Below, one piece after another: positions 282 to 37,173 of a stretch of 54,470 bases of DNA (position 1 is the stretch's first letter; each line of letters opens with the position of its first letter). This stretch comes from an uncultured bacterium (GTDB lineage: Bacteria; Eisenbacteria; RBG-16-71-46; CAIMUX01; WJJG01), in contig CAYMBA010000002.1 of assembly GCA_964388535.1 (NCBI GenBank), forward strand, positions 1 to 54,470. The letters run 5' to 3'. The position numbers and the translations under genes are program-made. The notes beneath the pieces were generated by a model. That model saw only the letters and a list, made by a program, of their open reading frames with translations. It had not been told where the DNA came from and did not search any database.

Positions 282-642
282 TCGGCTCGCCTTCTTATGT
301 TGCGCCAGGTCAGACCAATGCGCAGTCAAAGGAAGCGGGGGGGCGCGGCGCGCCTCGGGCCTGGCTATGTGCGGCGGATCGTGGTCGAGCTCGCAGCCAG
401 GGCCGACTACGGTCCTGAGCGGCGCCAGTTCGTCTCAACGCGTGCCTTCCGGCACTGGCACGCGCAGCGCCTCATCGACCCGGGGGCGTCGATCCATCAG
501 GTGCACGCGGTGCTGGGGCACACCCGGGCGCAGACGACCAAGGATGTCTGCGCGCCTGAACCTAGCGTGGCAAAGACACTGGATCCCGCGTGCAACCTGC
601 GCGGACCAAGCTATCTCCTTCGCAGCTTCGCTTGTTTGGTAG
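282..642 (+). pseudogene. Tyrosine recombinase (phage-integrase family) C-terminal remnant
   Basis: Frame 3 reads RAFRHWHAQRLIDPGASIHQVHAVLGHTRAQTTKDV, i.e. the HxxRH and LGH boxes. A Cys (TGC 549-551) sits where the catalytic Tyr is expected. The expected continuation RLNLAWQ.. is in another frame. No N-terminal two-thirds is present, because the intron and hairpin lie upstream. Confidence 0.55.
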
Positions 643-5380: not shown

Positions 5381-5399
5381 TGATATCTACCCATAGGAT

Positions 5400-9434: not shown

Positions 9435-10586
9435 TCATTCCGCGGGTCTCGCTCGCACCCGCTCCACTTGGAAGCTCTCCTTGAGGGGGACGAGCTCCCC
9501 TTCAGGCTCGAGGTAGAAACGGCCCCCATACAACTGGTGTCTCCACTCCACTTCAGATGGTCCATGCCGGTTCTTCTCGATCGCAAGTCGCACAAACCGG
9601 GCTCGGCCATCTTCACCCACCGGCTTCAAGCATTCATGATTCAGCACCCATCCCCCGTCCGGCTCGTATGTCATGCTCACGGGGCCCCACAGGTCCTCCA
9701 AGTGCACCGGCCCCCTACGCCTCACCGCTTGCTCATCCACCGCGCCAACCGCAACCACGGGCACGCCCCGCCGCATGGCCAGCGCCTTGAGTGACCGCAC
9801 CACATAGTCGATGTGCTGCTCTCGCGCCAGGTCTGCGAGCTCCGCCGGCGGCGGCACACGCTGAGCGTAATCGACGATCACAACCGGATAGAGCCCTTTC
9901 CGCTGCAGCACTACTACCATCTTATCGATCGCTTCGGGGGACGTGTAGATCGGATCGCCCCGATACAGGTACAGCGCATCGAGATACTTCTCCATCTTCC
10001 GCCAGCCGAGAAGCGCCGATCTGGGCAGCTGTAGCAACATCGAGGACAGATCCTCCAGTGCGCCCGCCTCAGCCAGCCGCGCCAAGGCCCCCCGAATATC
10101 GCTCAGGTTGACGCCCCCTTCACCGCCCCCCGCCAGCCAGGACTCCATGCACAGCAGCCGTTGCTGCAGCAGGATCGGAGAATGTTCGTAGCAGATCAGC
10201 AGGCAGACCACCCTATTCCGCGCCTGGGCTGCCCATAAAGTTATATTTCGGCCCAGCTGACTCACAAAGAGCGTCTTACCGATGTTCTGCTTTCCAACCA
10301 CCAGCACCAGATCCTCGGCGTGCAGGCCGCCACCCATACTTGCATCCAGGAAAGGGAACCCTGTCGGGATCGGCCGCAGGACCGCCGGGTTAAGGTCAGG
10401 CAGTCTCCTCTCAAAGGCCTCCACGGTCGCCCGCAACGATACCGGAGGCCCGGTCCCGCCCGGGAAATGGATCGTGCTCTCGTAGCCGTCGTCAAAGCGG
10501 TTCACGAAACCCCCTGCCCTCCGCCCTGGAACCAGAGGCTGGCCCATCGACCACAAGCCGATAGCCGCGCGCATGCGCTGTCTCAA
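9435..10586 (-). CDS. DnaB-C-terminal/RecA-fold ATPase (DnaB-like helicase); start uncertain
   Basis: LVLVVGKQNIGKTLFVSQL is a Walker A in DnaB-like context and VVIVDYAQRV is a Walker B as in DnaB LIVIDYLQL. The annotated start overlaps the upstream gene by 95 nt. Alternative starts are ATG 10547 and GTG 10505. Confidence 0.75.
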   Translation of the reverse strand: MRQRMRAAIGLWSMGQPLVPGRRAGGFVNRFDDGYESTIHFPGGTGPPVSLRATVEAFERRLPDLNPAVLRPIPTGFPFLDASMGGGLHAEDLVLVVGKQNIGKTLFVSQLGRNITLWAAQARNRVVCLLICYEHSPILLQQRLLCMESWLAGGGEGGVNLSDIRGALARLAEAGALEDLSSMLLQLPRSALLGWRKMEKYLDALYLYRGDPIYTSPEAIDKMVVVLQRKGLYPVVIVDYAQRVPPPAELADLAREQHIDYVVRSLKALAMRRGVPVVAVGAVDEQAVRRRGPVHLEDLWGPVSMTYEPDGGWVLNHECLKPVGEDGRARFVRLAIEKNRHGPSEVEWRHQLYGGRFYLEPEGELVPLKESFQVERVRARPAE

Positions 10587-11292
10587 TGCCCGCCCCTAGG
10601 CGAGCCTCCGCGAACTTCTGCCGGAGACGGTTGATGTGTTTGCGAACGGCGCTCTGCTTCGCCTCCTCGCCGAACACCCGCCGTGCAATCGAGGGGATTG
10701 CCTTCCACTCATCCGCCGGCGGGTCCATCAGCACGGCGAGGATCAGCGCCTGCTTCCGGGTCAGCGCCACTTTGGAGCTCCGAACCCGCAGCGTCCGGCC
10801 GGCGACGTCCAGCACTGCATCGCCCGTGCGCCGAAAGCGCGAAGTGATCCGTCCCAGAGCGGCCAGCTGCGCCCTTGCGAAGCGAGCCGCCACGCCTGGC
10901 GGCACCTCCCGCTTGCTCAGGTATGCGACGGCCCCAACCCGAGCCGCCTCCTCAAGACCTTTCCTTGCCGACGCCCGACCCGTCATCACCATGATCGGCG
11001 CCGCGGTCGCCTCCCACAGCCACGGGAGGAGCTCCAACCCCCTGCCCTCGCGCTCAAGCTTTGTCCCCACCATTACCAGATCGGGCTGGAGCGCGACGGC
11101 CCGCTCCAATCCCTCGCCGGAGCCCGAGACACTCTCGACCCGTACGCCCTTCGCCTCCAGCTCCGCCGCAAGCCTGTCGCGATAGGCGACGTCCGGGTCC
11201 ACGATCAGAACCAATGGCGGCGGCACCCTCGATGCGCCCTCGTCTTCGGCCACCCTGACCTCCCCCGGCACGAAAGGCCGATCGCCTGTCAC
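10492..11292 (-). CDS. OmpR/PhoB-type response regulator paralogue with a degenerate (Asp-less) receiver
   Basis: Receiver is LVLIVDPD...QPDLVMVGTKL...IMVMTGR...AYLSKRE and the winged helix is RKHINRLRQKF...AHARGYRLVV. The likely start is GTG 11292, forming a GTGA overlap with the stop of the upstream regulator. The ORF-track start at 11388 lies inside the upstream gene. Confidence 0.8.
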   Translation of the reverse strand: MTGDRPFVPGEVRVAEDEGASRVPPPLVLIVDPDVAYRDRLAAELEAKGVRVESVSGSGEGLERAVALQPDLVMVGTKLEREGRGLELLPWLWEATAAPIMVMTGRASARKGLEEAARVGAVAYLSKREVPPGVAARFARAQLAALGRITSRFRRTGDAVLDVAGRTLRVRSSKVALTRKQALILAVLMDPPADEWKAIPSIARRVFGEEAKQSAVRKHINRLRQKFAEARLGAGIETAHARGYRLVVDGPASGSRAEGRGFREPL

Positions 11293-12032
11293 GTGCCCTT
11301 GCCCCGTGCGTCCTGCGCCTCCTCGGAGGTGTCCTTTACGCCCTCGACCACCAGGCGGTATCCGTGCGCGTGCGCCGTCTCGATCCACACACCCATGTCC
11401 AGCGACTCCAGCCTGGAGCGGATGCGCGCAATGTGCTTGCGTACCCCGGCCTTCTCGTTGTATCCGGTGTCGCCGTATACCTTCCTGGCGATCTCGGCAT
11501 GCGTCTTCCAGTGCCCTGCTGGCGGGGTCATCAGCGCGGCCAGGATCTCCGCCTGCATCTCCGTCAGCGGGACGGGTATGCCCCGGATCAGCAGCTTCCG
11601 CGCCTGGACATCCAGGACCACGCTCCCTAGGCGAAGCGACGTGTACGTCAACTTGCCGAGCCTGGCCAACTGGCTGCGCACAAAAGCGCTCAGCGCCGCC
11701 GGAAGCGCGTCGGCCTTGTTGAAGTAATGCGTCGCCCCTCCCTCCCCCGCCGCCTCCAGGTCTTCCCGAACCGACCCCCTGCCCGTCAGCACCACGATGG
11801 AGGCGGCCGTCGCCTGCTGCAAGCGCGGCAGCAATTCGAATCCCTCGCCTTCCCTCTGCAAATTGATGTCCAGGATGATCATATCCGGCCTCTGCTGGAC
11901 GGCTTTCTGGTACCCCTCCTCCGCGAAGAAGGCCGTCGAGGCGCGCAGCCCATCCCGCTCGAAGGTTTCCGCCAGCGACGCCGAGAACGCGGCGTCATCA
12001 TCAATGATCAGGACCAGGGGCTTGTTCGGCAT
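11289..12032 (-). CDS. OmpR/PhoB-type response regulator
   Basis: LVLIIDDD...RPDMIILDINL...IVVLTGR...HYFNKAD is a complete receiver signature. The C-terminal winged helix is RKHIARIRSRL...AHAHGYRLVV. Confidence 0.85.
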   Translation of the reverse strand: MPNKPLVLIIDDDAAFSASLAETFERDGLRASTAFFAEEGYQKAVQQRPDMIILDINLQREGEGFELLPRLQQATAASIVVLTGRGSVREDLEAAGEGGATHYFNKADALPAALSAFVRSQLARLGKLTYTSLRLGSVVLDVQARKLLIRGIPVPLTEMQAEILAALMTPPAGHWKTHAEIARKVYGDTGYNEKAGVRKHIARIRSRLESLDMGVWIETAHAHGYRLVVEGVKDTSEEAQDARGKGT

Positions 12033-12048
12033 GTCGATCCCCCTCCCT

Positions 12049-13275
12049 CTACCTCTCCCACATCACAGCAGGCTCCAGCATCTGTCGCGCGACGGTCACC
12101 GCCGCCGGCAGATCTCCTGTCAGCCCGCCCCGTTCGGCCAGCTCCTCTGCAAGCCGCCGGAGCATCCCCACTAGCAGCTTTCGCTGCCCGGGATCCAGAC
12201 CGCCCGCCACCACCCGGACGCTTTCAGCCACGGCCTGCGCCCGGTTCGAGAGTCCGGGGGCCAGCGCCTCCAGTGCATCCAGGCCCCCGGGATTGAAGCA
12301 CCGCGCCCTCATCGCGCAGACCTCGCAGCGACTAAGGTCCGCCAGGAACATCGGCAGGTACACCCCCTCCTGGATGCCGCGCAGCGCAGTCTCTAATACG
12401 TGAGTCAACCGCCCACCGGCCACCATGCGCCTCCCGTGCGTCCATCCGGAGGGGATGTGCCGGTACGTCACACCCGTCACCTCTCCAAAGGCGATCGTGC
12501 TCTCTGGCAGGGGTTCCATGTGCAGGGCCGCGATTACCCTCAGGTCCCGGCTCACCATCCTCGCCGACGGCGTTCGCGCCAGATCGTAGTCGTGCACCTC
12601 CACCAACACCGAATGCGGGGTATTCTCCGGCTCGTCCATGACCAGCATGTCCGCCCTCGCAGGCAGGACCCAGCCCCCCACCCTCACCTGAACGGGAACC
12701 TGAATACCAAGGATCGCAGGATTCGCTGGCGCCTCGCCGGGGGCGGCAAGCCGCTCGGCCATGCGCAGGCTGTCCGCAAACGCGTCCGCTACGCTGTACG
12801 GGCCGAACAGCGGATGGTCGACTTGCTCCACCCGCAGCGCGGCCATCAGCTTTCGATCCAGCTCCTTGGCAAGCGCGGGAAGCCCGCTTGAGCGGGCCAT
12901 GCCCTTGAACTTGCGCGACATGCGCGGCTGCTTGTAGCGGGATCCGTCGCGCTTGCGGATCTTGCCCGATTGGAAGCCTTCCAGGATATGGGAAAGCGCC
13001 TGAGCGTAGCCTGCCAGGCCCTTGAGCACGTCATCCTCGTCCGCGCCCTCACGCGCCAGCCAGGTCCGCCAGACGACCATCACCGCTTCCTGCAGGCCAG
13101 CCTCCTGGCGACGGGCGTACACCCGCCACGCCTGGCGCAGGGAATCACCGGGGAGCTCAAGCGTTGTCCGGGGCGCCCACTCCCCCCGCAGCCCCACCAC
13201 ATGCTTCCAGTAGTAGAGCATGGAGCAGAATACGTAGTCCCGTAACTGTTCAAGCGACACTGGCGACAAAGGCAT
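12049..13275 (-). CDS. PD-(D/E)XK-superfamily, Cas4/RecB-like nuclease with a four-Cys (Fe-S type) signature
   Basis: An N-terminal Cys (YVFCSMLYYW) plus C-terminal CEVCAMRARC gives C...CxxCx5C, as in Cas4/AddB/Dna2. The candidate core is RADMLVM...LVEVHDY, in which the usual Lys is not obvious. Confidence 0.55.
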   Translation of the reverse strand: MPLSPVSLEQLRDYVFCSMLYYWKHVVGLRGEWAPRTTLELPGDSLRQAWRVYARRQEAGLQEAVMVVWRTWLAREGADEDDVLKGLAGYAQALSHILEGFQSGKIRKRDGSRYKQPRMSRKFKGMARSSGLPALAKELDRKLMAALRVEQVDHPLFGPYSVADAFADSLRMAERLAAPGEAPANPAILGIQVPVQVRVGGWVLPARADMLVMDEPENTPHSVLVEVHDYDLARTPSARMVSRDLRVIAALHMEPLPESTIAFGEVTGVTYRHIPSGWTHGRRMVAGGRLTHVLETALRGIQEGVYLPMFLADLSRCEVCAMRARCFNPGGLDALEALAPGLSNRAQAVAESVRVVAGGLDPGQRKLLVGMLRRLAEELAERGGLTGDLPAAVTVARQMLEPAVMWER

Positions 13276-13290
13276 ATCCGATCGCCCTCT

Positions 13291-14721
13291 TCAGTCGGCG
13301 CGCACCTGCACCTGCCCGGGATCCAGGAGCGCCGGCGAAGTGGCGAAGCCGAGATAGAACGTGCTGCCTACTCCGACCTCTGACTCGACCCTGAGGGTCC
13401 CGCCCATCGCCTCGAGCAGGCGACGCGTCACCCACAGCCCGATCCCCTCGCCCTTCACCCCGGCACTTCGTCCGGCCCTGAACCGGTACGACCCGATCCG
13501 AGGCAGCTCCTCGGCAGGCATTCCAGGGCCGGTGTCCGAAACGGCGAAGATGACTTGGTCGCCCTCGAGGTAGGCCCGTACGCGCACCGCACCCTCCTGC
13601 GTGTATTTGAAAGCGTTATGCAGCACGTTGGAGAGTACCCGGAAGAAGGCCACTCGGTCCGCCTGGATGTGCGGCAGGTCCTCCGGGATCTCGGTCTCCA
13701 GCACTAGATCCGGCCTCCGCCGGGCTCGCAGAGACAGGAACGGCCGAACCACCTGTTCGAAGAGCTCTCCCGGGCGATGCGATTCGACCGTCACCAGGGG
13801 TGACCTGCCCTCCGCCATGTCGACCAGCGAATCGCCCGACCGAGCGACGGTGGCCACCAGCTGAATCGTCCGGTAGAGCTCCGCCAGGTCCGCCTCTGAG
13901 GCCTTCCCCGGCCTATCCGAGGACGCCGTCGTCTCCCAGGCGCGCAACAGGACGGCCTCAAGCGAGCCGAGGGTGTTGCCCAGATCGTGTTGGAAGGATC
14001 CGAGGAGCATCTTCAGCAGGCCGTCTTTGACCCGCGCCTCCTCCAGCAGCTGCTCCATCAGCTCGGCCTGGGCAAAGCGGACGGTCACGGCCTCGACCAC
14101 CCGCGGAAAGTGCTGCACGGCGGCCTCCACTGCCTCCATGTTGAACCGGTCGAGGCGCTTTACTCGGGGGACATGCAGGATGATCAGTCCCGCCGTCGGA
14201 CCGCGTTCCCCGCCGCGCTTCATCCTCAGCCGGACAGCGAGCATCCTCCCGCGCCTTGCTTGGGGAAAGACCTTATGGAACGCTTTCGGCATCCTCCCAG
14301 CGGGCAGCTGCAGCAGGTCTCGCTCCCCCTCCCCCGTCGCAAGCGCGGCGAACTCCCCTACAGCCAATGTCGCGGCGAGCATCTCCTGATCCGCGCGTCC
14401 CTGCAATGTGCCTCCGGAGGCCGCCACGTGTAATTCCGCGCTCTCAAAACCCTCGCCTGGAACGCGGATGAGCGCCAGCCTCCCCCGCGCCCCTACCCCT
14501 TCGGCCAACGCCCCTGTCATACCCTGCACGGCCGCCTCGATGTTCGGCGCCGCCGACAACCTCAGGACCGCCTCCGGTAGATTGCGCCAGCGCCGCAGAC
14601 GGCTCATGGCGGCCGCCTCCCCCACCCTCACCGCGGCGACCACCTGAACGGTCAGGAACAGCGCACCCAGCAGAACCAGGATCCCCAGGGGCACAAGCAA
14701 GCTATTCAGGATCTCGCTCAT
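13291..14721 (-). CDS. Sensor histidine kinase (one N-terminal TM helix, cytoplasmic sensor region, HisKA + HATPase_c)
   Basis: H-box is SFQHDLGNTLGSL, N-box is NVLHNAFKYT, G1 is DTGPGMP and G2 is GEGIGLWVTRRL. The N-terminus LLVPLGILVLLGALFLTVQVVAA is hydrophobic. Confidence 0.9.
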   Translation of the reverse strand: MSEILNSLLVPLGILVLLGALFLTVQVVAAVRVGEAAAMSRLRRWRNLPEAVLRLSAAPNIEAAVQGMTGALAEGVGARGRLALIRVPGEGFESAELHVAASGGTLQGRADQEMLAATLAVGEFAALATGEGERDLLQLPAGRMPKAFHKVFPQARRGRMLAVRLRMKRGGERGPTAGLIILHVPRVKRLDRFNMEAVEAAVQHFPRVVEAVTVRFAQAELMEQLLEEARVKDGLLKMLLGSFQHDLGNTLGSLEAVLLRAWETTASSDRPGKASEADLAELYRTIQLVATVARSGDSLVDMAEGRSPLVTVESHRPGELFEQVVRPFLSLRARRRPDLVLETEIPEDLPHIQADRVAFFRVLSNVLHNAFKYTQEGAVRVRAYLEGDQVIFAVSDTGPGMPAEELPRIGSYRFRAGRSAGVKGEGIGLWVTRRLLEAMGGTLRVESEVGVGSTFYLGFATSPALLDPGQVQVRAD

Positions 14722-14869
14722 ACCTCTTCTGTCTCGCTACATAGCATCTCGTCGCTCAATCATTATCGGCCGGATCATGCGTTTTTCACAGCCACCCCCG
14801 CCATCTTCTATCACCTTGCCGGTTGCTGCGCGCTCTCAGTACCAACCCTGGTCGCGCTGCGCATCGGCA

Positions 14870-16606
14870 TCACTTCCCCCTCTGCACCGGCGGCGCCGGC
14901 GGGATGTACTCCCACCAACGAAACGGCAGCCGCCAGACCGGCTTCAACGGATCCGGGGCGGCACTGCGGTCGAAATCCGTCAGCAGCTCCCAGGTCGTGA
15001 TCAGGATGGCGGGCGTCCGCCGCAGCCGGTACCGCCCCGCCAGCTCCACGAGGCGTCGCGCCACGGCTCGCGCCCGGGCTTCGCCTCCCTCCGCGACGAC
15101 GTACAGAAGCATCGGGATCGGGTCGGAGGCCGCGTATCCGAACCGGGCAAGGATGTACTTCTCCAGTTGCCGGGTCAAGCGGACGCCGTTTCGCGTGCCG
15201 CGGTCGATCTCCAACCAAAAGGGCACACTTCGCCCGTCCCAAATCAGCATCCCGCTCGAATCCGGTACAACCTCGACCCAGCGAGGGTGCGTCAGATCTC
15301 TGGGGGCCACTGCCACGCAGTATCCATAGCGAGCCTGGAGAAGATCCCAGCGCAGCAGACAGCCCCGCCGCTGCAGGGCGAGCATGAAGGCGAGTATGTA
15401 AGTCATGTGGCGTGGGCTTCGCGTCAAGGGCGCATGGCCCGAGGCCCAGGCCCGACGGGCGCGAAACCGCGCCGGCGTCTGCATTACGCGATAGGCCAGC
15501 AGATCCAGCCCGCGCGGGGCCAGTACGAAACGATGCTCGCCCTCAAAGAGCGGCAACCGCTCCACCAGACCGACGGCCTCCATGCGCCTCAGCCCGCGGA
15601 GCACGCTCCGCCTCCTGTATCCCACCAGCAGCGCAAGCTCCTCGGCCGCAAAGGCAGGATATCGGAGCAGGCCTAGGAGCAGCGCCGCCTCACCGTGCGT
15701 CATCGTCAAAGCATCGCGCAAGGCCGAAGCTACGTGGTGCTGGCTCCGTTGAGTCCATTGGGACACGCGCTGCCGGCGCGGCGCCCGCGGCACCCTGCCT
15801 CCGAGAAAGGTCTGCATGCTTTCCCTCGTCGGGAGGAGCGTAGGTTCGTCCCAAGGACAGAACTGCCCCCACCCCATCTCGGGAAGCCTCAGCCAGGCAT
15901 CCGCGCGCCCCAACTCTCCCGTGCACCTTTCATAAGGGTAAAAGTACACCGGGAAGCTTGCTCCCCTCTGCCGCTTCCTGGCCCTGCCCCCGGATCGGAT
16001 CAGCATTGGCATCCTCTTCGGGGCGAAGGGCACGCCCATGACCGCGAGGACGACGCTAAGATCTCTCTCCTGCCGGCGAAACTGGAACCAATTCCGCAGC
16101 AGCTCAAGGTACCACCACGACGCTGCGGCCCCCTCCGGAGGCACGCCGAACGCGATCAGCACCTCCCCATCTCTTTTTCCTCGAATGCTGACCAATGCAT
16201 CCAGGACCAGGCCCGGCGCCGCGCGCCACGGACTGATGGACCACACCATTCTCTGCCTGATCCCCGCCGCGCCCAGGAAGATCCGCCGGGCCTTATCCAG
16301 GTGAGGCGCAGCGAGTAGTGTCTCCGCGCGACGGTTCACCGACGGGATCGGTAGCCCAAAATGGTGCGCGCCTGCGGGCGTCAGAGCGTAGCGTCTGGGA
16401 GGCCTGGGTTGCCCCTTGGTGGCTATGCGCATTGTTTCGACATAGCCCAGATGCAACGCCTCTTCCCGTGCGCGGCGCGCTTTGAACTCGCTCAGCCCAC
16501 TCTCCAAGCACAGGAATCCAAACCTCGCCCACGGGTGCCGCCAGACGGCATCAAGGAATCGCCGCAGCGGATCGCCCTCGTCCCCGGACCCCCTTCGATC
16601 TCCCAA
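14870..16606 (-). CDS. Replication-relaxation (Replic_Relax-like) family protein, apparently two tandem wHTH-containing modules
   Basis: MarR-like wHTH stretches are present (FLCLESGLSEFKARRAREEALHLGYVE; AAEELALLVGYRRRSVLRGLRRMEAVGLVE). The C-terminal module carries VVPDSSGMLIW...PFWLEIDRGT, resembling the family's E-x-D-R-G-T motif. Assignment is from memory. Confidence 0.5.
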   Translation of the reverse strand: MGDRRGSGDEGDPLRRFLDAVWRHPWARFGFLCLESGLSEFKARRAREEALHLGYVETMRIATKGQPRPPRRYALTPAGAHHFGLPIPSVNRRAETLLAAPHLDKARRIFLGAAGIRQRMVWSISPWRAAPGLVLDALVSIRGKRDGEVLIAFGVPPEGAAASWWYLELLRNWFQFRRQERDLSVVLAVMGVPFAPKRMPMLIRSGGRARKRQRGASFPVYFYPYERCTGELGRADAWLRLPEMGWGQFCPWDEPTLLPTRESMQTFLGGRVPRAPRRQRVSQWTQRSQHHVASALRDALTMTHGEAALLLGLLRYPAFAAEELALLVGYRRRSVLRGLRRMEAVGLVERLPLFEGEHRFVLAPRGLDLLAYRVMQTPARFRARRAWASGHAPLTRSPRHMTYILAFMLALQRRGCLLRWDLLQARYGYCVAVAPRDLTHPRWVEVVPDSSGMLIWDGRSVPFWLEIDRGTRNGVRLTRQLEKYILARFGYAASDPIPMLLYVVAEGGEARARAVARRLVELAGRYRLRRTPAILITTWELLTDFDRSAAPDPLKPVWRLPFRWWEYIPPAPPVQRGK

Positions 16607-16611
16607 AGGCG

Positions 16612-19600
16612 CTATTCCTCCTCGGGATCGCTCTCCGCATCTGTCGCCCCCTCGCCATGCGCGGAGTCCTCAGCCCAACCCTCCATGCGCTCGAGCAGCT
16701 CGAGCATCCGATCGTGCGGCGTGCGGCCGCGCTCCCCGGCCTCCCCGGAGGATCGAGCCCCCTCCGCATCGGATGCCTCGCTCCCTCCTGCCCAAGGCAT
16801 CGCCGGCTGCCCCACGCCGCCTCTCACACCCATTCCCCTTTCCCCAGCCCTATCCGGCCCATCGACCACGTCGTCCTCAACCGCTTCCGGGAAGAAGGGT
16901 TCCACACCCAGGAGATCTCCGAAGGCCCCGTCGTGCACCGCGGTGGCTGCGGCCACCTCCGTGCCGAAGTGACGCAGGATCACGTTCATGGCGCGATGCG
17001 CGGCCCTCATGGCCTCTCCATGGGCAAGTGAGTAGCGAGCCCTCATCGCCAGCAGTCTGGCGCGCACCTCCGGATTTTCTCCAGGCATCGGCTTCGTCTC
17101 CACCGCAAACGGCGCAACGACCTGTCGCCCGACCACCGTCCGCACATAGGCGGTGTATTGCGGCAGGTTCGTCAGCGTCGCGGGCGGCACCTCCTCTCCC
17201 AACTCCCGCTCGCTGATGCGCGCCGCGTCGTCCCCGGCCACGCGGAAGACCATCAGCGTGTCCGTGTTGGCCAGCAGCTGGCGGTCCACGGCGACCCGCG
17301 CCAGGTTCTCCCGCTGCATCGAGGGCTCCAGGAGTGAGAGGCCTTGTGTGCTCAGGACGAGCGATCCCCCGAATTTCTGCGCTTCAGCCATGATCGAGGC
17401 GTAATCCACCGCCGCCATGGTCTGGGATTCGTCCACGATCACCGACGTGGCCACCCGCTCCTCGGCCGGCCTAGCCCCCTGCGCCAGGATCGCCCGGCGC
17501 ACATAGTTGAGGACCAGGCTTCCCATGAAGGAGGCAAACTCATCCCCCACCGTCGGGCGGGCGGTGTGGAAAAGTACGATCTTGCCATCGGCGACGAAGC
17601 GCCATGGGTTGATGGTGCTTGCCGACTGCCCCACCATAGCGCGAATGCGGCTGTTGAACTCGAAGGCCCGCGCCTTGGACAGCACCGGCGAGATGACCCG
17701 CTCCTGGAAGCTGGGCGTCAGGTCGTCGTACTCGGTCTCGAAGTAGGCGATCACATGCTCCGAGCGTGGATCGTCCTTCGGCAGCACCTCTCTCAGGAAG
17801 TGGGATCGCCGCTCCCGGGTCAGGCTTATCAGCGGCGCCAGCGCCAGGATCGTGAATTGTTGATCCGGAGACCGTTGGGTGTTGGCCAACGCCAACGCCA
17901 TGAGGAGCATGCGCAGCGGCACCACCATGCGCGGCCCCCAGTAGCCGGCCCAGAGGATGTAGGCGACGTCGACAAAGGCTTCGACGACTCGCTCCGGATC
18001 GCCCACCTGATCCACGTCCAGCACGTTGAACCCCGGAACAAAGTCGTCATCCGCCAAGTCGATAAGTACGACGTCATCTATTCGATTCTGGGGTACGTGG
18101 CCTAAGAGGGAATCCACCATGTCCCTGTGCGGATCGACGATCACCACCGCGCGCCCGGGCTGGCGCATCGCCCAGCATGCGATGTGCTGGGCGACCGTCG
18201 TCTTGCCCATGCGCGTTCGCCCGACCAGCATCATGTGCCTGGTCAGCGCATCGCGCGGCAGATAGACCGGCACGCGTACGCCGCTCGACTTACGCGCTTC
18301 GCCGATGTGCAATCCGGAGGGGTCCAGCACCTGCTCAGGAACGGGCAGCGCCACCTGGACCCTCGAGGCCGGCAGCAGGTCCGGCAGGTCGGCGAGCGGC
18401 AAATGCCACATGCCGGCGATCTCAGCCGCATTCAGCAGCGACTCTCCCGGCGCGAAGGCAGCCAGGCTCGCTGGCGTGAATTGGGGCGACCGCCCTGGGG
18501 GCATCAACCCCAACCGGTTCCCGGCGTCCTGGGAGAACAGGTTGTAGGCGGCAGCCATTTGCTCGAGAAGCTGCCGCGCCCGGTCCCGCGTGGCCGCCGT
18601 CGCCGCGAGACGCACCTCGCACCGATATGCCGGGCGCTGGATCTTGGTCTCCACCAGCGACTCGATGGATTCGTCCCAGTCCGCCCCGCCCATCGGGCCC
18701 ATGATAAGCGGCGCCCCGAGGACAAGCGATATCCCCGAGATGAGCAGCGTCAGGAGCCGCCCAAACGAAAACCACATCCCCGAAAGCGTCCCGGCCATGA
18801 GGAAATAGGACAGGCCTCCCAGGCCTAGGGCCAGCCCGAGCAGCCGCATCAGGTCCGCAGCGTTGAATGTTCCGAAGCCGCGCCGCTTGAAGCGTAGGAG
18901 CTCCCTCAGGTACGGCCGCGCCCACCCCTCGGGCGCGCGCCCGTGGATCAACACCTGCGACTGGGCGACCTCGCCCTGACGCACGGCGCCGGCGGCGCCC
19001 ATCAGGGCCAGCACCGGATCGTTCTCCTGAAGCTCCCGCCACGTCAGAAGAGGCAGGTGCGGTGCAGCCTGAAGCTTCATGCGCCCGGTGGCCACAAGTC
19101 CCCCGCTCCCTTCCATGCGGATCGCCGGATCATCACCAGGGTCCAGCCTCTCGAAGATTGGGGATCCATAGATCGAGGTGATCTGGCCCTGTACGAAGTC
19201 GGCCACCCTGCGATGGCAGCGCACGATGAGGAATCGCCTCTCCTCGTCGGCGGCGAGATCCAGCGAGATCGGGCCGGCTGCAGCCCCCACGGCGTTGATC
19301 AACTGTTCGATGGCGGCCACCTCCCGAGGCGTTCCTCGCACCGGCGTCACCGAGAACGCCACCACATCCTCCGGATCGCCCTCTCCTGCCAGGGAATCGA
19401 AGTGCACGCCGTCGCGCCCCCGAAGCGCTTTGTGCCCTTCGCCCAACGCGTCTGCGCGCGCCCTGCCGTTGCCTCCTTCAGCGGCTCCGGCCGCCCCGGT
19501 ATTCTGCGCCTCGCCATGCTGTGCCAGTTCAAGCTCGGCCCCGCAACGACGGCAAAGCAGCCCGCTCCCGGCTGCCTCCCCAAGCGTATGACGCTCCCCA

Positions 19601-19629
19601 CAAGCGATGCACAGGTAGAGGGCTTTCAT
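16612..19629 (-). CDS. Type IV coupling protein-like ATPase (TraD/VirD4/TcpA-like P-loop) with an N-terminal zinc ribbon
   Basis: Walker A is LVGRTRMGKTT and Walker B is SVIVDESQTM. TM segments are LLGLALGLGGLSYFLMAGTL and LLTLLISGISLVLGAPLIM. The N-terminus has CIACGE..x..CRRCG and the tail is acidic. The start is taken as ATG 19629 (MKALYL), 11 nt after the upstream stop; the ORF-track start at 19797 overlaps the M23 gene. Confidence 0.8.
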   Translation of the reverse strand: MKALYLCIACGERHTLGEAAGSGLLCRRCGAELELAQHGEAQNTGAAGAAEGGNGRARADALGEGHKALRGRDGVHFDSLAGEGDPEDVVAFSVTPVRGTPREVAAIEQLINAVGAAAGPISLDLAADEERRFLIVRCHRRVADFVQGQITSIYGSPIFERLDPGDDPAIRMEGSGGLVATGRMKLQAAPHLPLLTWRELQENDPVLALMGAAGAVRQGEVAQSQVLIHGRAPEGWARPYLRELLRFKRRGFGTFNAADLMRLLGLALGLGGLSYFLMAGTLSGMWFSFGRLLTLLISGISLVLGAPLIMGPMGGADWDESIESLVETKIQRPAYRCEVRLAATAATRDRARQLLEQMAAAYNLFSQDAGNRLGLMPPGRSPQFTPASLAAFAPGESLLNAAEIAGMWHLPLADLPDLLPASRVQVALPVPEQVLDPSGLHIGEARKSSGVRVPVYLPRDALTRHMMLVGRTRMGKTTVAQHIACWAMRQPGRAVVIVDPHRDMVDSLLGHVPQNRIDDVVLIDLADDDFVPGFNVLDVDQVGDPERVVEAFVDVAYILWAGYWGPRMVVPLRMLLMALALANTQRSPDQQFTILALAPLISLTRERRSHFLREVLPKDDPRSEHVIAYFETEYDDLTPSFQERVISPVLSKARAFEFNSRIRAMVGQSASTINPWRFVADGKIVLFHTARPTVGDEFASFMGSLVLNYVRRAILAQGARPAEERVATSVIVDESQTMAAVDYASIMAEAQKFGGSLVLSTQGLSLLEPSMQRENLARVAVDRQLLANTDTLMVFRVAGDDAARISERELGEEVPPATLTNLPQYTAYVRTVVGRQVVAPFAVETKPMPGENPEVRARLLAMRARYSLAHGEAMRAAHRAMNVILRHFGTEVAAATAVHDGAFGDLLGVEPFFPEAVEDDVVDGPDRAGERGMGVRGGVGQPAMPWAGGSEASDAEGARSSGEAGERGRTPHDRMLELLERMEGWAEDSAHGEGATDAESDPEEE

Positions 19630-19640
19630 CTGCCAGAACC

Positions 19641-20366
19641 TTACGGCATCCCGGGGCAGACGTTGACAGGATCGGCCCGATACTGCGAGCAGGACACTCC
19701 AGCCCCCAGGTGCTCCCAATCGCAGAATGCCCCCTGCCCCGGCAGGAACGTCCTCGTCGGGTCCCGCGCCGTGCACGCCCCCGTCCCGACGTCGCACTCG
19801 CGCACCTCAAAGTGCACATGCGGGCCGGTCGTGAAGCGGCCTGTGTTCCCGCTCGAACCGATGACGTCGCCAGCTACCACGATCTGCCCGGGCGCGACCA
19901 GGGCGGCGCTCAGGTGGGCGAAAAGCACCTGCCAGCCCTGGTTCTCGATCACAACCGCTCCCCCGTAGACGGCGTGGTCGCCCGCGTAGGTCACCCTACC
20001 GCCGTATGGCGTGCGCACCGGGTAGTTCTCGCACCAGCACGTCGAATAGTCGATGCCTCGATGGGGGGCTTTGCGCCCCTCGGTGTCCCCAAACGGACTG
20101 CTCAACGCGCCGAACGTTGGAGGCAAGAGGCAGGTGAAGCTCTCCGGGCCGCTATAGCCCTCCATCGCAAACCCCAGGCTCCCCTCCACGACCGCTTCCT
20201 GCCCCAGGTCGCTGCCCATGGCCCAGGCCTCAATCTCTGACGCGAACATCGGCAGCTGACGGGCCGTCTCCGCTACGGCATATGCCGGCAGGATTACAAG
20301 CGTGAGCAGGTAGCAGGCCATCAGGCCGGCAAACCCGAGGCACCCAAAACCCACAACCTTCTTCAT
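19641..20366 (-). CDS. M23 (LytM-type) metallopeptidase, likely cell-wall hydrolase of the transfer apparatus
   Basis: HRGIDYS (HxxxD) and GPHVHFEV (HxH) are present, with an N-terminal signal/TM segment VVGFGCLGFAGLMACYLL. Confidence 0.85.
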   Translation of the reverse strand: MKKVVGFGCLGFAGLMACYLLTLVILPAYAVAETARQLPMFASEIEAWAMGSDLGQEAVVEGSLGFAMEGYSGPESFTCLLPPTFGALSSPFGDTEGRKAPHRGIDYSTCWCENYPVRTPYGGRVTYAGDHAVYGGAVVIENQGWQVLFAHLSAALVAPGQIVVAGDVIGSSGNTGRFTTGPHVHFEVRECDVGTGACTARDPTRTFLPGQGAFCDWEHLGAGVSCSQYRADPVNVCPGMP

Positions 20367-34764: not shown

Positions 34765-37173
34765 ATGTCTCGCCGCGCGCGCTCGCCCGGGCGGATAGAT
34801 AGAAAGTCTGGGAGCACGCGGTTGATGACGCCGAACGGGCGCAACTCACCACAACAAGATCCTTCCTCCAATCACGCCTCGATCGCGACGGGTGGCGAGC
34901 TCTCTCTCGCCCCCTTCACGGAACGCGCCCGCGAGGCGGTCATCAAGGGCTACAAGATCATCAAGGTCCCGGACTACTTCCTCAACGAGTGGCTGCCGCT
35001 CCTGGGGCCCAGCCGCTGGCTTGCGGTCCTCGCCTTTCGGCAGGTCGCGTTCGTCCATAAGTGCAAGGAGAAGACGGGCCTGCGTCCGACGCGCACAACC
35101 TTCCGTGAGCTCGCGATATGGTCCGGGCAGTCCCGCCCCCAGATGCACAAACTCCTCAAGAAGCCCGGTCTGCTGACCTGGTTTGTCGAGCCCGCGGAGG
35201 GGGAGTTCGGCACGCATCCCCGGAGCCGATCGGAGCGCCGCACGTATCTTGTCCGCGTCGAGATACCGCTCACGCCGAGCGACCAGGCCAAACTGGAGTC
35301 GTTCCTGCAGGCCAATCGTCCCTCCGACGACGAGGGGTGGTTGGAGGTGCTGCACCGTGCGCTCTCCGCCAAGCATAGCGAGCCGCCCTCAAAGGACCCC
35401 CTTCCAGAACGCCCGAAGACGATCCAGCAACTGGTTCGTGAGCTGCGCGACCCTTCGCAGCCGCTTCCGGAGGATATCGACTGGGCGTGCGATGAGCTGC
35501 TGGAGCGGTGGCAGACGCAGAATTTCGGACAGGTGACGCATTACTTCGTCCGGAAATGGCTTCCAGATCTCACGCCAGGCCTGGGTTGCCTGCTCATCTG
35601 GTCCCGCCGGCACGCCAACAAGCAACCGGACATGCAAATCGGCCGTCTCCACAACATCGGGTGGCAGGACCTGGCCAGGGCCGTGGGAGTCACCACCAAG
35701 AGCGTCCGCCGCTGGTTCTCGGACCATGAAACGTATCCTCACACACGCACTTTCATGGAGCCTATCCCTGTCCACGTGGGCGCCGGCGTAGTGGATCGCA
35801 TCGCTCCCGATGGGCTAGACGTCGCTGGCGAGCACGTCGCTGTCACGGCCAGCACCGTCATCAAGCACCCGATCCGCTCGGGCGACTTCATCCGTCTGAC
35901 CGCCGAGCGCAGGGACGGATCCCTCCAGGCGCTTTCCCTTGAGCTCGCCAATGAGGCCGACCTAGACCCGGGCTTCTCCCCGGCGCACATGACCTTTGAT
36001 GTCAAACTGACGGAGCCCATCCACCCGGATGACCAGGCTCTCTATCGATCGCTGCTCGATAGCCAGACATCTTTGGCAGACAAGGATCAGATGCTTCTTC
36101 CCAATGTTCAGTTGCCCCGCTCATCGAAGCAATCTTCCTCCAGCGAGGGAGGGGCAAAAGTAGACAAGCCTGGGACAATAATGGAAAGGGAGAGCCCAAA
36201 TCCCGCCGATCATATCCCAGAAGTAGACATGGCGGGCGCAGAAGTAGACAACCCTCAGCCAGTAGTGAATTCTGGTAGGCCAGAACTAGACATGCGTGGC
36301 CCAGAGATAGACAACGAGCCGACAGGGGTAGACGCATTAAGAGATATATCAAGAGTCTCTAAGACTCCTCCAAGAAACGATACAGAAGAACAACTACCAG
36401 ATTCGCCAAATTTGGCTGCAAACAGTACGTCTCAGGAGATGCCTGCCCCAGATGTAGTTGTTGCCTCACACAACCTTTGGGACATCAGGCACATTCTGAC
36501 TGAGGCGGCGATCCCAAAGCGCGACAAGGATGCTATCTTGGCTAGCTGGACAAGGCGCTGGCAGCCTTTCGTGGCCTGGCTGCTCTGGTCGATAGCAACA
36601 AAGAGCATCGATGCGCCAGTGCTCCATGCAGTGAGTCGTTTCAAGAAAGGCGAAACCCCACCACAAGAGTTTCTCGGGCTGGCAACTATTCCGCCATCGA
36701 CGCTTGCTGCCTGGCTCAGACCCGATGGAATTGACTGGCCCTATGAATTTGACGACGCGATCCGTAAGCTGCGCAGCAATGGTGCCTACCGGAAGCTGCG
36801 AAACCTTGGATCGATACCGGATCACGAGACTCGAGAGGACGACTTGGGGTGGCGGGCCGAACCGTCTAGGGAAGGGCAGAGGGATTCCGGCGACGCGCGA
36901 GTAGAGATGGTTGTGGATGATCGAGGGATGACCGCGGAAGCTGCTTGGCGCGCAGCGAAAGCGCAGCTGCAGACCGAGGTCCCGCGCGCGACATACGACA
37001 CATGGGTCCGGGACATTCAGTTCGTGGGTTTTCGGGACGATGTTTTTGAACTGGGGGTCCAGAACTCCTACGCGCGAGAGTGGCTTGAGGATCGTCTGGC
37101 TAGCACGATCACGCGAGTACTGGCGGGAGTCGTTGGACGCAGAGTGGGGGTGAGATTCGTTGTTCACGAGTGA
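34765..37173 (+). CDS. Replication-initiator-like protein with wHTH-like N-terminal regions, a heptad-repeat linker and a DnaA-N-terminal-like C-terminal domain
   Basis: The C-terminus ATYDTWVRDIQFVGFRDDVFELGVQNSYAREWLEDRLASTITRVLAGVVGRRVGVRFVV matches the DnaA_N pattern (tW...l.....l.l.vpn.f...w.......i). The start is uncertain (e.g. ATG 34825). Confidence 0.65.
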   Translation: MSRRARSPGRIDRKSGSTRLMTPNGRNSPQQDPSSNHASIATGGELSLAPFTERAREAVIKGYKIIKVPDYFLNEWLPLLGPSRWLAVLAFRQVAFVHKCKEKTGLRPTRTTFRELAIWSGQSRPQMHKLLKKPGLLTWFVEPAEGEFGTHPRSRSERRTYLVRVEIPLTPSDQAKLESFLQANRPSDDEGWLEVLHRALSAKHSEPPSKDPLPERPKTIQQLVRELRDPSQPLPEDIDWACDELLERWQTQNFGQVTHYFVRKWLPDLTPGLGCLLIWSRRHANKQPDMQIGRLHNIGWQDLARAVGVTTKSVRRWFSDHETYPHTRTFMEPIPVHVGAGVVDRIAPDGLDVAGEHVAVTASTVIKHPIRSGDFIRLTAERRDGSLQALSLELANEADLDPGFSPAHMTFDVKLTEPIHPDDQALYRSLLDSQTSLADKDQMLLPNVQLPRSSKQSSSSEGGAKVDKPGTIMERESPNPADHIPEVDMAGAEVDNPQPVVNSGRPELDMRGPEIDNEPTGVDALRDISRVSKTPPRNDTEEQLPDSPNLAANSTSQEMPAPDVVVASHNLWDIRHILTEAAIPKRDKDAILASWTRRWQPFVAWLLWSIATKSIDAPVLHAVSRFKKGETPPQEFLGLATIPPSTLAAWLRPDGIDWPYEFDDAIRKLRSNGAYRKLRNLGSIPDHETREDDLGWRAEPSREGQRDSGDARVEMVVDDRGMTAEAAWRAAKAQLQTEVPRATYDTWVRDIQFVGFRDDVFELGVQNSYAREWLEDRLASTITRVLAGVVGRRVGVRFVVHE
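36155..36334 (+). repeat. Iteron-like direct repeats, consensus CAGAAGTAGACA, phased at 21 bp
   Basis: Good copies start at 36155 (CAAAAGTAGACA), 36218 and 36239 (CAGAAGTAGACA), 36281 (CAGAACTAGACA), 36302 (CAGAGATAGACA) and 36323 (CAGGGGTAGACG). A degenerate copy lies at 36260. All spacings are multiples of 21. Confidence 0.7.
36335..36430. other. AT-rich tract directly following the repeats (candidate DNA-unwinding element)
   Basis: CATTAAGAGATATATCAAGAGTCTCTAAGACTCCTCCAAGAAACGATACAGAAGAACAACTACCAGATTCGCCAAATTTGG is conspicuously A+T-rich relative to the rest of the gene. Confidence 0.45.

What the first reader, a model, noticed from the sequence alone, without database searches (positions are those of the whole stretch)
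9435..14721. Operon linking a two-component system to a Cas4-like Fe-S nuclease and a DnaB-like ATPase
Gene order on the minus strand is histidine kinase, 4-Cys PD-(D/E)XK nuclease, response regulator, Asp-less regulator paralogue, DnaB-like ATPase. Gaps are 15-16 nt and two junctions overlap (GTGA at 11289-11292). Co-transcription is therefore likely.

A nuclease gene sandwiched between the kinase and its regulators, followed by a replicative-helicase-type ATPase, is not a standard arrangement on a conjugative backbone. It suggests signal-controlled DNA processing, replication or entry exclusion. Alternatively it could be a defence-like module whose output is transcriptional.

The kinase has a single TM helix and a large cytoplasmic sensor region.
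Basis: partly seen in the sequence, partly recalled or inferred. Interest (0 to 1): 0.62.

Follow-up and report, generated by a model that had tools for sequence, protein, structure and literature searches.

The report
Kinase-coupled dead Cas4-like protein module
A conjugative element of an uncultured heat-loving Chloroflexota bacterium carries a deeply conserved, undescribed gene set in which a histidine kinase is paired with (in one lineage fused to) an iron-sulfur Cas4-like protein that has lost its catalytic lysine, together with response regulators and a DnaB-type ATPase; it probably tells the element when to replicate or transfer.

Summary
Five tightly packed minus-strand genes (gaps 15 and 16 nt, overlaps 4 and 14 nt) encode:
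- a single-TM histidine kinase;
- a 4-Cys Cas4/RecB-fold protein;
- an OmpR-type regulator;
- its Asp-less paralogue;
- a DnaB_C-only ATPase.

They follow the relaxase and coupling-protein genes of a conjugative element.

The "nuclease" matches no Pfam or NCBIfam model above threshold. A pLDDT 92.8 model and a profile comparison place it in the Cas4/AddB/phage RecB-exonuclease fold. All four cluster cysteines and the motif II Asp are kept. The catalytic Lys is absent in 0 of 71 family members, and the QxxxY motif is gone. It is therefore a non-canonical or dead nuclease.

The Cas4-like + kinase + regulator + DnaB_C linkage persists in 13 independent metagenomic or MAG loci, down to about 20% identity and in two gene orders. 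One lineage fuses the kinase to the Cas4-like domain.

Best reading (about 0.5): a backbone three-component signalling module. The Cas4-fold Fe-S protein is the kinase's DNA-sensing (or redox-sensing) partner and governs element replication or transfer. A defence role is unsupported. No publication describing it was found.

The parts
14722..14869 (-). 148-nt spacer between the relaxase-like gene and the kinase gene, with the only sigma70-like promoter match of the region (GTGAAA-16-GATAAT, 14789-14762)
13291..14721 (-). Histidine kinase, 476 aa. It has an N-terminal single TM helix, a ~200-aa cytoplasmic region with no recognised domain, the H-box (His245) and an HATPase_c domain.
12049..13275 (-). 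Cas4/RecB-fold 4-Cys (Fe-S type) protein, 408 aa, founding an unannotated family. Motif II Asp209 is kept. The catalytic Lys (position 231) and the QxxxY motif are lost. There is a large helical insertion (residues ~38-176) and a C-terminal three-helix extension.
11289..12032 (-). RR1: canonical OmpR/PhoB-type response regulator (REC with DD, D55, T83, K106; winged-helix Trans_reg_C)
10492..11292 (-). RR2: paralogue of RR1 (47% identity) whose phospho-acceptor Asp is Gly. The start GTG overlaps the RR1 stop (GTGA). It is a lineage-specific duplicate, missing in L004 and in distant variants.
9435..10505 (-). DnaB-family RecA-type ATPase without the DnaB N-terminal domain (356 aa from GTG 10505; the longest ORF starts at TTG 10586). 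Walker A, catalytic Glu, Walker B, and Lys338/Arg340 aligned by my own count to DnaB's KQRNGP finger motif (finger role from memory) are kept. The SQLSR motif and the DLRESG DNA loop are replaced.
14870..19797 (-). Context, directly upstream on the same strand: Replic_Relax-type relaxase-like protein (14870-16606) and type IV coupling protein (16612-19797). This order is conserved in relatives.
34765..37173 (+). Context: putative replication initiator with a C-terminal DnaA_N domain. Its homologue lies next to the module in L011.
53250..54431 (-). Context: DnaG-like primase (Zn ribbon, DNAG_N, Toprim). Its homologue (38% identity) sits immediately upstream of the kinase gene in L009, and DnaG-like genes sit in the same place in L012 and L019.

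Best explanation
This is a backbone regulatory and replication module of a family of conjugative elements (plasmid or ICE) of Chloroflexota.

Proposed circuit:
- A membrane-anchored histidine kinase works with a dedicated partner protein. The partner has the Cas4/AddB iron-sulfur nuclease fold but has lost the catalytic lysine and the QxxxY motif.
- The partner acts as the input (co-sensor) of the kinase. It most likely reports ssDNA or DNA ends produced when the element is nicked, transferred or replicated. Alternatively it reports the state of its Fe-S cluster.
- The kinase phosphorylates the OmpR-type regulator RR1, which sets transcription of element genes.
- The Asp-less paralogue RR2 is a phosphorylation-independent modulator found in one sub-lineage only.
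- The co-transcribed DnaB-family ATPase is the element's own helicase-type motor. It would act with the element's DnaA_N-bearing initiator and its DnaG-like primase.

Shown here: the gene content, the fold, the motif losses, the operon-like packing, the deep conservation of linkage and a kinase-Cas4 fusion.

Inferred: physical kinase-partner interaction, DNA (or redox) as the signal, the regulon of RR1, and helicase activity.
For: (1) Operon-like packing. Gaps are 15 and 16 nt and overlaps 4 and 14 nt. There is no internal promoter or terminator match, and one promoter-like site lies upstream of the kinase.

(2) Fold and homology.
- The AF2 model has pLDDT 92.8.
- Foldseek top hits are exclusively Cas4-family Fe-S nucleases: ACE1, AddB, AdnAB, Dna2, MGME1, SSO0001.
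- Phage RecB/Cas4 exonucleases match at E down to 8e-10.
- hhalign against a canonical PDDEXK_1 protein gives 93.6% probability, E=2e-7.

(3) Degenerate active site with an intact cluster site. The four Cys are present in every member complete at those positions (70, 71, 71 and 70 of 71). Lys at the motif III position is 0/71. The Q and Y of QxxxY are replaced by R and A/L. The motif III Asp is kept in only 42/71.

(4) Conserved linkage in 13 independent loci, down to ~20% identity, in two gene orders (HK-Cas4-RR-DnaB and Cas4-HK-RR-DnaB).

(5) Fusion. P0139/P0103 encode kinase plus Cas4-like domain in one polypeptide, seen on 5 contigs.

(6) The kinases next to the Cas4-like genes form one homologous family with invariant His and N/G boxes.

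(7) Replication context.
- A Rep with a DnaA_N domain and a DnaG-like primase are on the same element.
- Homologues of both lie adjacent to the module in relatives.
- The host has its own canonical DnaB elsewhere.

(8) Backbone position. The module lies after relaxase and T4CP in the window, L002-L004, L009, L019, L021 and L022.

(9) Contigs from a crude-oil metatranscriptome, 92-96% identical to the window, cover all genes from RR2 to T4CP. One contig spans the Cas4-like/RR1 junction.
Against: - No experiment exists. The signal, the kinase-partner contact and the regulon are all inferred.
- In the fusion the Cas4-like domain is C-terminal to the kinase core, which is the usual place of an output or receiver domain rather than an input.
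- Two thirds of the members keep a D209/E226/H228 constellation that could still bind a metal, so residual or unconventional nuclease activity cannot be excluded.
- The DnaB-like ATPase has altered DNA-binding-loop and sensor motifs, so it may not be a helicase.
- No RR operator motif was found.
- The RNA evidence comes from assembled contigs of a relative and could include DNA carry-over.
- Context was inspected for only 13 loci, out of 112 cluster representatives.
Confidence: 0.5

Rival explanations
1. The Cas4-like protein is a working (non-canonical) exonuclease. It belongs, with the DnaB-like helicase and the DnaG-like primase, to a phage-type replication/recombination module. The two-component system merely regulates the operon, and adjacency to the kinase reflects operon packaging rather than a sensor partnership.
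For: - The closest structural relatives are phage RecB/Cas4 exonucleases, which in phages commonly sit with DnaB-like helicases and primases (own knowledge).
- D209, E226 and H228 co-occur in 47/71 members.
- DnaB_C and DnaG genes co-occur with the family.
Against: - The catalytic Lys is absent in 71/71 and QxxxY is lost.
- 24/71 members have lost one or more of D209/E226/H228 while every member complete at those positions keeps the four Cys.
- The gene stays next to the kinase in both gene orders and is fused to it in one lineage.
- DnaG and DnaB are more loosely placed.
Confidence: 0.22
2. The Fe-S cluster itself is the sensor. The Cas4-fold protein reports oxygen, redox or NO status to the kinase, so that an anaerobe's element transfers or replicates only under suitable conditions. 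DNA is not the signal.
For: - The four Cys are the best-conserved positions of the family, alongside two of the DEH-triad positions (D209 64/71, E226 59/71) that are only partly kept and a catalytic Lys absent in 0/71.
- The hosts are Anaerolineae-type organisms from vents, hot springs and oil.
- Fe-S-based kinase sensing is known (NreB; own knowledge).
Against: - In Cas4/AddB/Dna2 the cluster is structural (own knowledge).
- The family also keeps a strongly basic conserved loop (G104-S120) and the nuclease-core architecture, which suggests nucleic-acid binding.
- Nothing here tests cluster lability.
Confidence: 0.13
3. The module is an anti-phage defence or entry-exclusion system carried by the element. 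It would act through a kinase-sensed infection signal with a nuclease or ATPase effector, in the manner of Detocs-type systems.
For: - The element carries other conflict cassettes: an RNA-helicase cassette at 611-8248 and Abi_C and REase-like cassettes at 40.5-44 kb.
- A kinase together with a nuclease-fold protein and an ATPase superficially resembles defence architectures.
Against: - No meaningful PADLOC hit for any of the five proteins.
- The module is conserved backbone next to relaxase, T4CP, Rep and primase across deep divergence, rather than variable cargo.
- The nuclease motif is degenerate.
- The output is a DNA-binding transcription factor.
Confidence: 0.08
4. There is no functional link. 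The genes are neighbours by chance on a gene-dense element.
For: None beyond the absence of experimental data.
Against: - Linkage is kept in 13 independent loci at 17-83% identity, in two gene orders.
- A kinase-Cas4 fusion exists.
Confidence: 0.02

Closest known systems
Cas4 / AddB-AdnAB nuclease domains / phage Cas4-family (RecB-family) exonucleases (Pfam PF12705 PDDEXK_1, PF01930 Cas_Cas4; PDB 4ic1, 4ceh_B, 9iac, 8d3l)
   Same: - Same alpha/beta nuclease core and the same C...CxxCx5C cysteine arrangement.
- Motif II Asp is kept.
- Foldseek gives E down to 8e-10 and hhalign gives 93.6% probability.
   Different: - No catalytic Lys (0/71) and no QxxxY.
- Below the Pfam threshold (16.1 vs 22 bits).
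- About 140-residue helical insertion and a C-terminal helical extension.
- Obligatory neighbour or fusion partner of a histidine kinase. It is not linked to CRISPR, to Argonaute, or fused to a UvrD/RecB-type helicase.
RecC inactivated nuclease-like domain of RecBCD (own knowledge; not tested here)
   Same: It is a PD-(D/E)XK-derived domain that has lost catalysis and is retained as an ssDNA channel or recognition device. This is the precedent for a dead nuclease fold used to read DNA.
   Different: RecC has no Fe-S cluster, is part of a helicase-nuclease machine, and has no link to signal transduction.
Two-component systems with a dedicated third component or an Fe-S sensor (e.g. NreABC, LiaFSR, YycFGHI; own knowledge)
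   Same: The kinase and regulator are encoded with an accessory protein that modulates the kinase, and the output is an OmpR-type regulator.
   Different: No known accessory protein has a Cas4/RecB fold. Here the set also includes a DnaB-family ATPase and lies on a conjugative element.
Two-component control of conjugative transfer: VirA/VirG (Ti plasmid), RteA/RteB (CTnDOT) (own knowledge)
   Same: A kinase and regulator pair is encoded by the mobile element itself and is presumed to gate transfer or replication functions.
   Different: The sensor architectures are unrelated, and those systems have no nuclease-fold partner and no helicase-type gene in the unit. No sequence relationship beyond generic HK/RR domains was found.
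DnaB-family replicative helicases, including island/phage DnaB-like proteins (NF040583 SPI-7-type, phrog_19)
   Same: - RecA-type core with Walker A/B and the catalytic Glu. A KxR in EKNRHGP aligns by my own count to DnaB's KQRNGP motif; its Arg-finger role is from memory.
- DnaB is the best PDB match, E=1.9e-19 with the family profile.
   Different: - No DnaB N-terminal domain.
- Far below the equivalog cut-offs (49.5 vs 385 bits).
- SQLSR and the DLRESG DNA-binding loop are replaced.
- It is an extra copy beside the host's canonical DnaB.

Membership tests
Cas4/RecB-family Fe-S PD-(D/E)XK nucleases | PD-(D/E)XK alpha/beta core fold | tested here: met
   - The model has pLDDT 92.8.
- All significant Foldseek hits are Cas4-family nucleases.
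- hhalign gives 93.6% probability against a canonical PDDEXK_1 protein.
Cas4/RecB-family Fe-S PD-(D/E)XK nucleases | Four cluster-ligand cysteines (one N-terminal, CxxCx5C C-terminal) | tested here: met
   C17, C317, C320 and C326 are present in every member complete at those positions (70, 71, 71 and 70 of 71). The CxxCx5C aligns to that of the canonical protein.
Cas4/RecB-family Fe-S PD-(D/E)XK nucleases | Motif II catalytic Asp | tested here: met
   D209 is present in 64/71 and aligns to the canonical motif II Asp.
Cas4/RecB-family Fe-S PD-(D/E)XK nucleases | Motif III (D/E)xK with catalytic Lys | tested here: not met
   HDYD (228-231) aligns to the canonical HDYK. Position 231 is K in 0/71. 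Asp229 is kept in 42/71.
Cas4/RecB-family Fe-S PD-(D/E)XK nucleases | Motif IV QxxxY | tested here: not met
   The Q position is R (53/71) and the Y position is A/L (59/71).
Cas4/RecB-family Fe-S PD-(D/E)XK nucleases | Score above the Pfam gathering threshold (PF12705/PF01930) | tested here: not met
   The window protein scores 16.1 bits against a cut-off of 22. 24/71 members hit weakly, with best E=3e-6.
Cas4/RecB-family Fe-S PD-(D/E)XK nucleases | Bound Fe-S cluster and nuclease activity | not testable with these tools
   Needs anaerobic purification, UV-vis/EPR spectroscopy and nuclease assays.
Two-component sensor histidine kinases | Phospho-accepting His in a DHp helix plus N, G1 and G2 boxes of the catalytic domain | tested here: met
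   HATPase_c E=1.7e-24. His245, N365, N369, G398, G426 and G428 are invariant in 10 orthologues. The Pfam HisKA model itself is not matched.
OmpR/PhoB-family response regulators | Receiver with acidic pocket, acceptor Asp, Thr and Lys, plus a winged-helix output domain | tested here: met
   RR1 has REC at 1.2e-14 and Trans_reg_C at 3.7e-9, with DD, D55, T83 and K106 present. RR2 has both domains, but the acceptor Asp is Gly (Glu or Gly in L002 and L003), so RR2 fails this feature.
DnaB-family replicative helicases | RecA-type C-terminal domain with Walker A/B, catalytic Glu and Arg finger | tested here: met
   DnaB_C E=4e-16. The motifs GKQNIGKT, CYEH, VDYAQ and EKNRHGP are conserved. DnaB is the best PDB match. 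Equating EKNRHGP with DnaB's Arg-finger motif rests on my own count of the aligned chain and on memory.
DnaB-family replicative helicases | N-terminal DnaB domain (primase-binding collar) and equivalog-level similarity | tested here: not met
   No DnaB N-terminal domain was reported; only ~45-70 residues precede the ATPase core. TIGR00665 scores 49.5 bits against a 385 cut-off.
DnaB-family replicative helicases | ssDNA-binding loop and helicase activity | tested here: inconclusive
   SQLSR is replaced by GAVDE, and DLRESG by DLWGP. Activity cannot be tested here.
Known anti-phage defence systems (PADLOC-DB 2.0), incl. Detocs-like kinase systems | Match of the component proteins to the system models | tested here: not met
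   Only marginal generic REC/HATPase hits (E >= 1.8e-4). There is no hit for the Cas4-like or DnaB-like proteins.

The most novel reading that the evidence does not exclude
A catalytically dead Cas4-fold iron-sulfur protein has been recruited as a receptor that lets a histidine kinase sense DNA directly (ssDNA or free ends of the transferred or nicked element). This would be the first two-component system with nucleic acid as its ligand. A conjugative element would use it to detect that it has entered a new cell or been processed, and to switch on its own replication through a private DnaB-type motor.
Probability: 0.3. Interest if true: 0.82.

Novelty: new variant of a known kind. Interest (0 to 1): 0.64.

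Why it matters
How conjugative elements of monoderm and little-studied phyla decide when to replicate and transfer is largely unknown. No two-component system is known to use a nuclease-fold Fe-S protein as its partner.

This finding defines:
- an unannotated protein family of about 112 clusters at 50% identity, almost all labelled "hypothetical";
- a fixed signalling partner for that family;
- a natural fusion that argues for physical interaction.

The result is a directly testable hypothesis for DNA-sensing or redox-sensing by a histidine kinase. It is also another example of a dead nuclease fold re-used for recognition, and it gives annotation handles for a whole family of Chloroflexota conjugative elements.

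Tried and rejected
- The first AF2 run, on the shallow 20-sequence alignment, gave pLDDT 40.8 and was discarded.
- Sequence searches of the Cas4-like protein or its profile against the PDB found nothing meaningful.
- hhalign against a single AddA-like protein of L019 gave only 2% probability. The canonical PDDEXK_1 protein of G038 was needed to obtain a usable alignment.
- The phylum search hits in G038, G085 and G095 are not family members. G038 is a canonical PDDEXK_1 protein next to mutS. The G085 and G095 hits cover only the N-terminal Cys motif of ~1000-aa ORFs and were not examined further.
- I looked for RR operators or conserved motifs upstream of the kinase gene and found nothing convincing.
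- I tested whether a LexA-type GAAC-N4-GTTC box precedes the module. It is perfect in L002 but absent in the window, and the pattern count in the window is at chance level.
- A KaiC-like reading of the ATPase was rejected. KaiC matches only the Walker A region, whereas DnaB matches both halves of the domain.
- Contig circularity: no terminal overlap was found, and the contig extends beyond the window to 68,121 bases.
- No A24 peptidase or DUF192 homologue is present in the window.
- Literature searches found no description of a kinase-Cas4 module.

Full report
**Observation**

The five minus-strand ORFs exist as described. Pfam and NCBIfam assign:
- 13291-14721: a histidine kinase (HATPase_c 1.7e-24).
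- 11289-12032 and 10492-11292: OmpR-type regulators (REC plus Trans_reg_C).
- 9435-10586: the DnaB C-terminal ATPase family (4e-16).

The ORF at 12049-13275 gets no hit in Pfam or NCBIfam, none in PHROGs or PADLOC, and none among PDB sequences.

The junctions are:
- a 15-nt gap between the kinase gene and the 4-Cys gene;
- a 16-nt gap between the 4-Cys gene and RR1;
- a GTGA overlap at 11289-11292 between RR1 and RR2;
- an overlap between RR2 and the ATPase gene. Its homology-supported start is GTG 10505, giving a 14-nt overlap. The orthologues in L003 and L004 begin at the equivalent residue.

The consensus scan finds no promoter-like or terminator-like site inside 9435-14721. It finds one promoter-like site (14789-14762) in the 148-nt spacer upstream of the kinase gene. 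The kinase has one hydrophobic segment, at its extreme N-terminus, followed by a run of Arg residues, so the remainder is cytoplasmic.

**The 4-Cys protein**

- A word-indexed search found 20 close homologues (61-97% identity), all unnamed or "hypothetical"; the one with an organism label is a Chloroflexota MAG.
- A profile search of 1.8 billion representatives found 112 clusters, 87 of them at E<=1e-10.
- Using an alignment of 71 full-length members (A2), AlphaFold2 gave a confident model (pLDDT 92.8, pTM 0.88). The shallow alignment had failed.
- Foldseek against the PDB returns only Cas4-family Fe-S nucleases at the top: ACE1 9iac at 5e-4, then AddB, AdnAB, Dna2, MGME1, Cas4 SSO0001 and Exo5.
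- Against viral models it returns phage RecB/Cas4 exonucleases, with E down to 8e-10 and TM 0.45-0.63.
- 24 of 71 members weakly hit PF12705 (best 3e-6). The window protein scores 16.1 bits against a cut-off of 22.

A profile-sequence comparison with a canonical PDDEXK_1 protein (G038, PF12705 1.4e-34) gives 93.6% probability and fixes the register:
- ADML aligns to motif II (Asp209).
- H228-D-Y-D231 aligns to the canonical H-D-Y-K.
- R246...A250 aligns to QxxxY.
- CEVCAMRARC aligns to CDWCAYRPIC.

Column counts over the 71 members:

| Position | Count |
|---|---|
| Four Cys | 70, 71, 71 and 70 of 71 (every member complete at those positions) |
| Asp209 | 64/71 |
| Asp229 | 42/71 |
| Lys at 231 | 0/71 |
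| Q position is Arg | 53/71 |
| Y position is Ala or Leu | 59/71 |

The family-specific residues E226 and H228 co-occur with D209 in 47/71 members and are partly lost in the others.

The fold and the cluster site are therefore under strong constraint, while the canonical catalytic apparatus is not. The protein is a member of the Cas4/RecB fold but not a canonical nuclease. It has most likely been re-purposed.

**Kinase, regulators and ATPase**

- Kinases. Those encoded next to the Cas4-like genes in ten loci are homologous to one another. His245 and the N, G1 and G2 residues are invariant, and each has an N-terminal hydrophobic segment and a ~200-residue region with no recognised domain. One orthologue gives a weak GAF_2 hit.
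- RR1. It has all the receiver signature residues.
- RR2. It is 47% identical to RR1 (E=2e-66). Its acceptor Asp is Gly in the window and L003, and Glu in L002. RR2 is absent from L004 and from all distant variants, so it is a lineage-specific pseudo-receiver duplicate.
- ATPase, retained features. It retains Walker A (GKQNIGKT), the catalytic Glu (CYEH) and Walker B (VDYAQ). Its EKNRHGP motif lines up with DnaB's KQRNGP by my own residue count along the aligned chain; that this motif carries the Arg finger is from memory, not from a tool result.
- ATPase, altered features. The SQLSR motif and the DLRESG DNA-contact loop are replaced (GAVDE, DLWGP). The replacements are conserved among seven orthologues.
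- ATPase, family. With the family profile, DnaB is the best PDB match over both halves of the domain (1.9e-19), whereas KaiC matches only the P-loop part. The host genome has a separate canonical DnaB scoring 361 bits.

**Conservation of linkage**

Context was obtained for 13 independent loci and summarised by tblastn.

- Close relatives L002, L003, L004 and L022 (and L021, whose contig ends within RR1): (VirB4-like)-M23-T4CP-Replic_Relax-HK-Cas4like-RR1-(RR2)-DnaB_C.
- Variants at about 30% identity (L009/L010, L012/L013, L019): DnaG-like primase-HK-Cas4like-second short HisKA kinase-(REC-RR). In L009 and L019 this again follows T4CP and relaxase.
- The most distant members, L011 (P0076, 23% identity) and L020 (cluster of P0131, 19%): Cas4like-HK-RR-DnaB_C-(A24 peptidase-like). 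In L011 this is preceded by the AAA_22 and DnaA_N-Rep genes, whose homologues lie at 32177-33082 and 34765-37173 of the window.
- L014/L018: the kinase and the Cas4-like domain are one 860-aa polypeptide, seen on five contigs. It is followed by a hybrid kinase, an RR, an A24 peptidase and DnaB_C.
- L015: a different N-terminal fusion, followed by HTH, GAF and HisKA proteins and a DnaB_C gene.

The Cas4-like/kinase pair is thus constant in both gene orders and is fused once. An RR and the DnaB_C ATPase accompany it wherever the contig is long enough, with one exception (L019).

Among 206 species-representative genomes of the phylum, only the window's genome has a true member. That patchiness fits a mobile element.

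**Element context and expression**

- The module follows the relaxase-like and coupling-protein genes.
- G+C falls from 0.66 to 0.55 just past the ATPase gene. In relatives the DNA beyond it is unrelated. The module therefore sits at the edge of the conserved backbone.
- In L022 the element lies on a 1.65-Mb contig.
- The same element encodes ParA, a putative initiator with a DnaA_N domain and a DnaG-like primase.
- DnaA domain I is the DnaB-binding domain of DnaA (established knowledge). That makes recruitment of the element's DnaB-type protein by its Rep a reasonable inference.
- Assembled contigs of a crude-oil metatranscriptome, 92-96% identical to the window, cover RR2, RR1, the Cas4-like gene, the kinase, the relaxase-like gene and T4CP. 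One contig spans the Cas4-like/RR1 junction. This is weak support for expression and co-transcription in a relative.
- DNA runs holding the sequence come mainly from hydrothermal vents and hot springs.

**Mechanism**

What is shown:
- a compact, conserved unit;
- a kinase with all catalytic signatures;
- a cognate-type regulator;
- a Cas4-fold Fe-S-type protein with a degenerate active site that is an obligate neighbour of the kinase and is once fused to it;
- a DnaB-family ATPase;
- backbone placement beside replication and transfer genes.

What I infer (confidence about 0.5): a three-component circuit in which the Cas4-fold protein is the kinase's partner, and RR1 controls element replication or transfer genes.

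I consider ssDNA or DNA ends the most likely signal, for three reasons:
- The fold is a DNA-end-binding fold.
- A strongly basic, highly conserved loop (G104-S120) is retained.
- Conjugation and rolling-circle processing generate exactly such DNA.

The dead nuclease domain of RecC is a precedent for re-use of this fold in DNA recognition (own knowledge). Fe-S redox sensing is the main alternative signal. An active non-canonical exonuclease within a phage-like helicase-primase module is the main rival overall. Defence is unlikely (backbone behaviour).

One caveat: in the fusion the Cas4-like domain follows the kinase core. That position would also suit an output role.

**Comparison and novelty**

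Each part belongs to a known superfamily, and element-encoded two-component systems exist (VirA/VirG, RteA/RteB). I found no description of a kinase coupled to a Cas4-fold protein, nor of this four-gene core.

I reproduced its main claims independently here, but it is not independent evidence.

I rate the finding as a new variant of a known kind: a two-component system with an unprecedented accessory or fusion partner, forming a conserved module of a new family of conjugative elements.

Noticed in passing
L002:8495-8506: A perfect GAAC-N4-GTTC (LexA/Cheo-box-like) palindrome lies 58 nt upstream of the kinase gene in relative L002. The window has no such box upstream of its kinase gene, although it has one at 32082-32093. 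SOS control of the module may therefore be lineage-specific.
   Followed up: partly
window 53250-54431 (-): A DnaG-like primase (Zn ribbon, DNAG_N, Toprim). It is 38% identical to the primase gene that lies directly upstream of the kinase in L009, and similar genes occupy that position in L012 and L019. The primase is therefore part of the same functional neighbourhood but has been relocated in this element.
   Followed up: partly
L011:9277-9864; L018:7021-7566; L020:13687-14292: A prepilin-peptidase-like (Peptidase_A24) gene sits next to the DnaB_C gene in three distant variants of the module. No homologue is detectable in the window (tblastn).
   Followed up: partly
window 49342-52306 (-): A MoxR-type AAA ATPase (bpMoxR domain, 2.6e-29) lies next to a protein with a weak vWA hit. 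This resembles a MoxR-vWA ternary conflict or signalling system on the same contig.
   Followed up: no
window 40545-41423 and 42997-43809 (+): A PDDEXK_13/REase-ARP restriction-endonuclease-like protein and an Abi_C-domain protein lie in the lower-G+C cassette region, flanked by IS110-family transposases (38905-40149 and 43837-44796).
   Followed up: no
L021 (CAZMSI010000075.1): An 8.4-kb contig carries T4CP-relaxase-HK-Cas4like-RR1 at 57-85% identity to the window, yet is binned in a MAG labelled Sideroxydans (Proteobacteria). This is either mis-binning or cross-phylum transfer of the element.
   Followed up: no
window 12349-12399 region of the Cas4-like protein (residues ~104-120): The loop GKIRKRDGSRYKQPRMS is strongly basic and almost invariant in the close relatives (A1); G104, Y114 and P117 are invariant and R118 nearly so in the 17-member alignment A4. 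It lies inside the helical insertion and is modelled with pLDDT >95. It is a candidate nucleic-acid-binding or kinase-binding surface.
   Followed up: no
window 3-950 (+): An open-ended ORF at the left edge gives a weak Phage_integrase hit (E=0.0013, below threshold). It overlaps the 3' end of the giant helicase gene on the other strand, so it is probably spurious.
   Followed up: no
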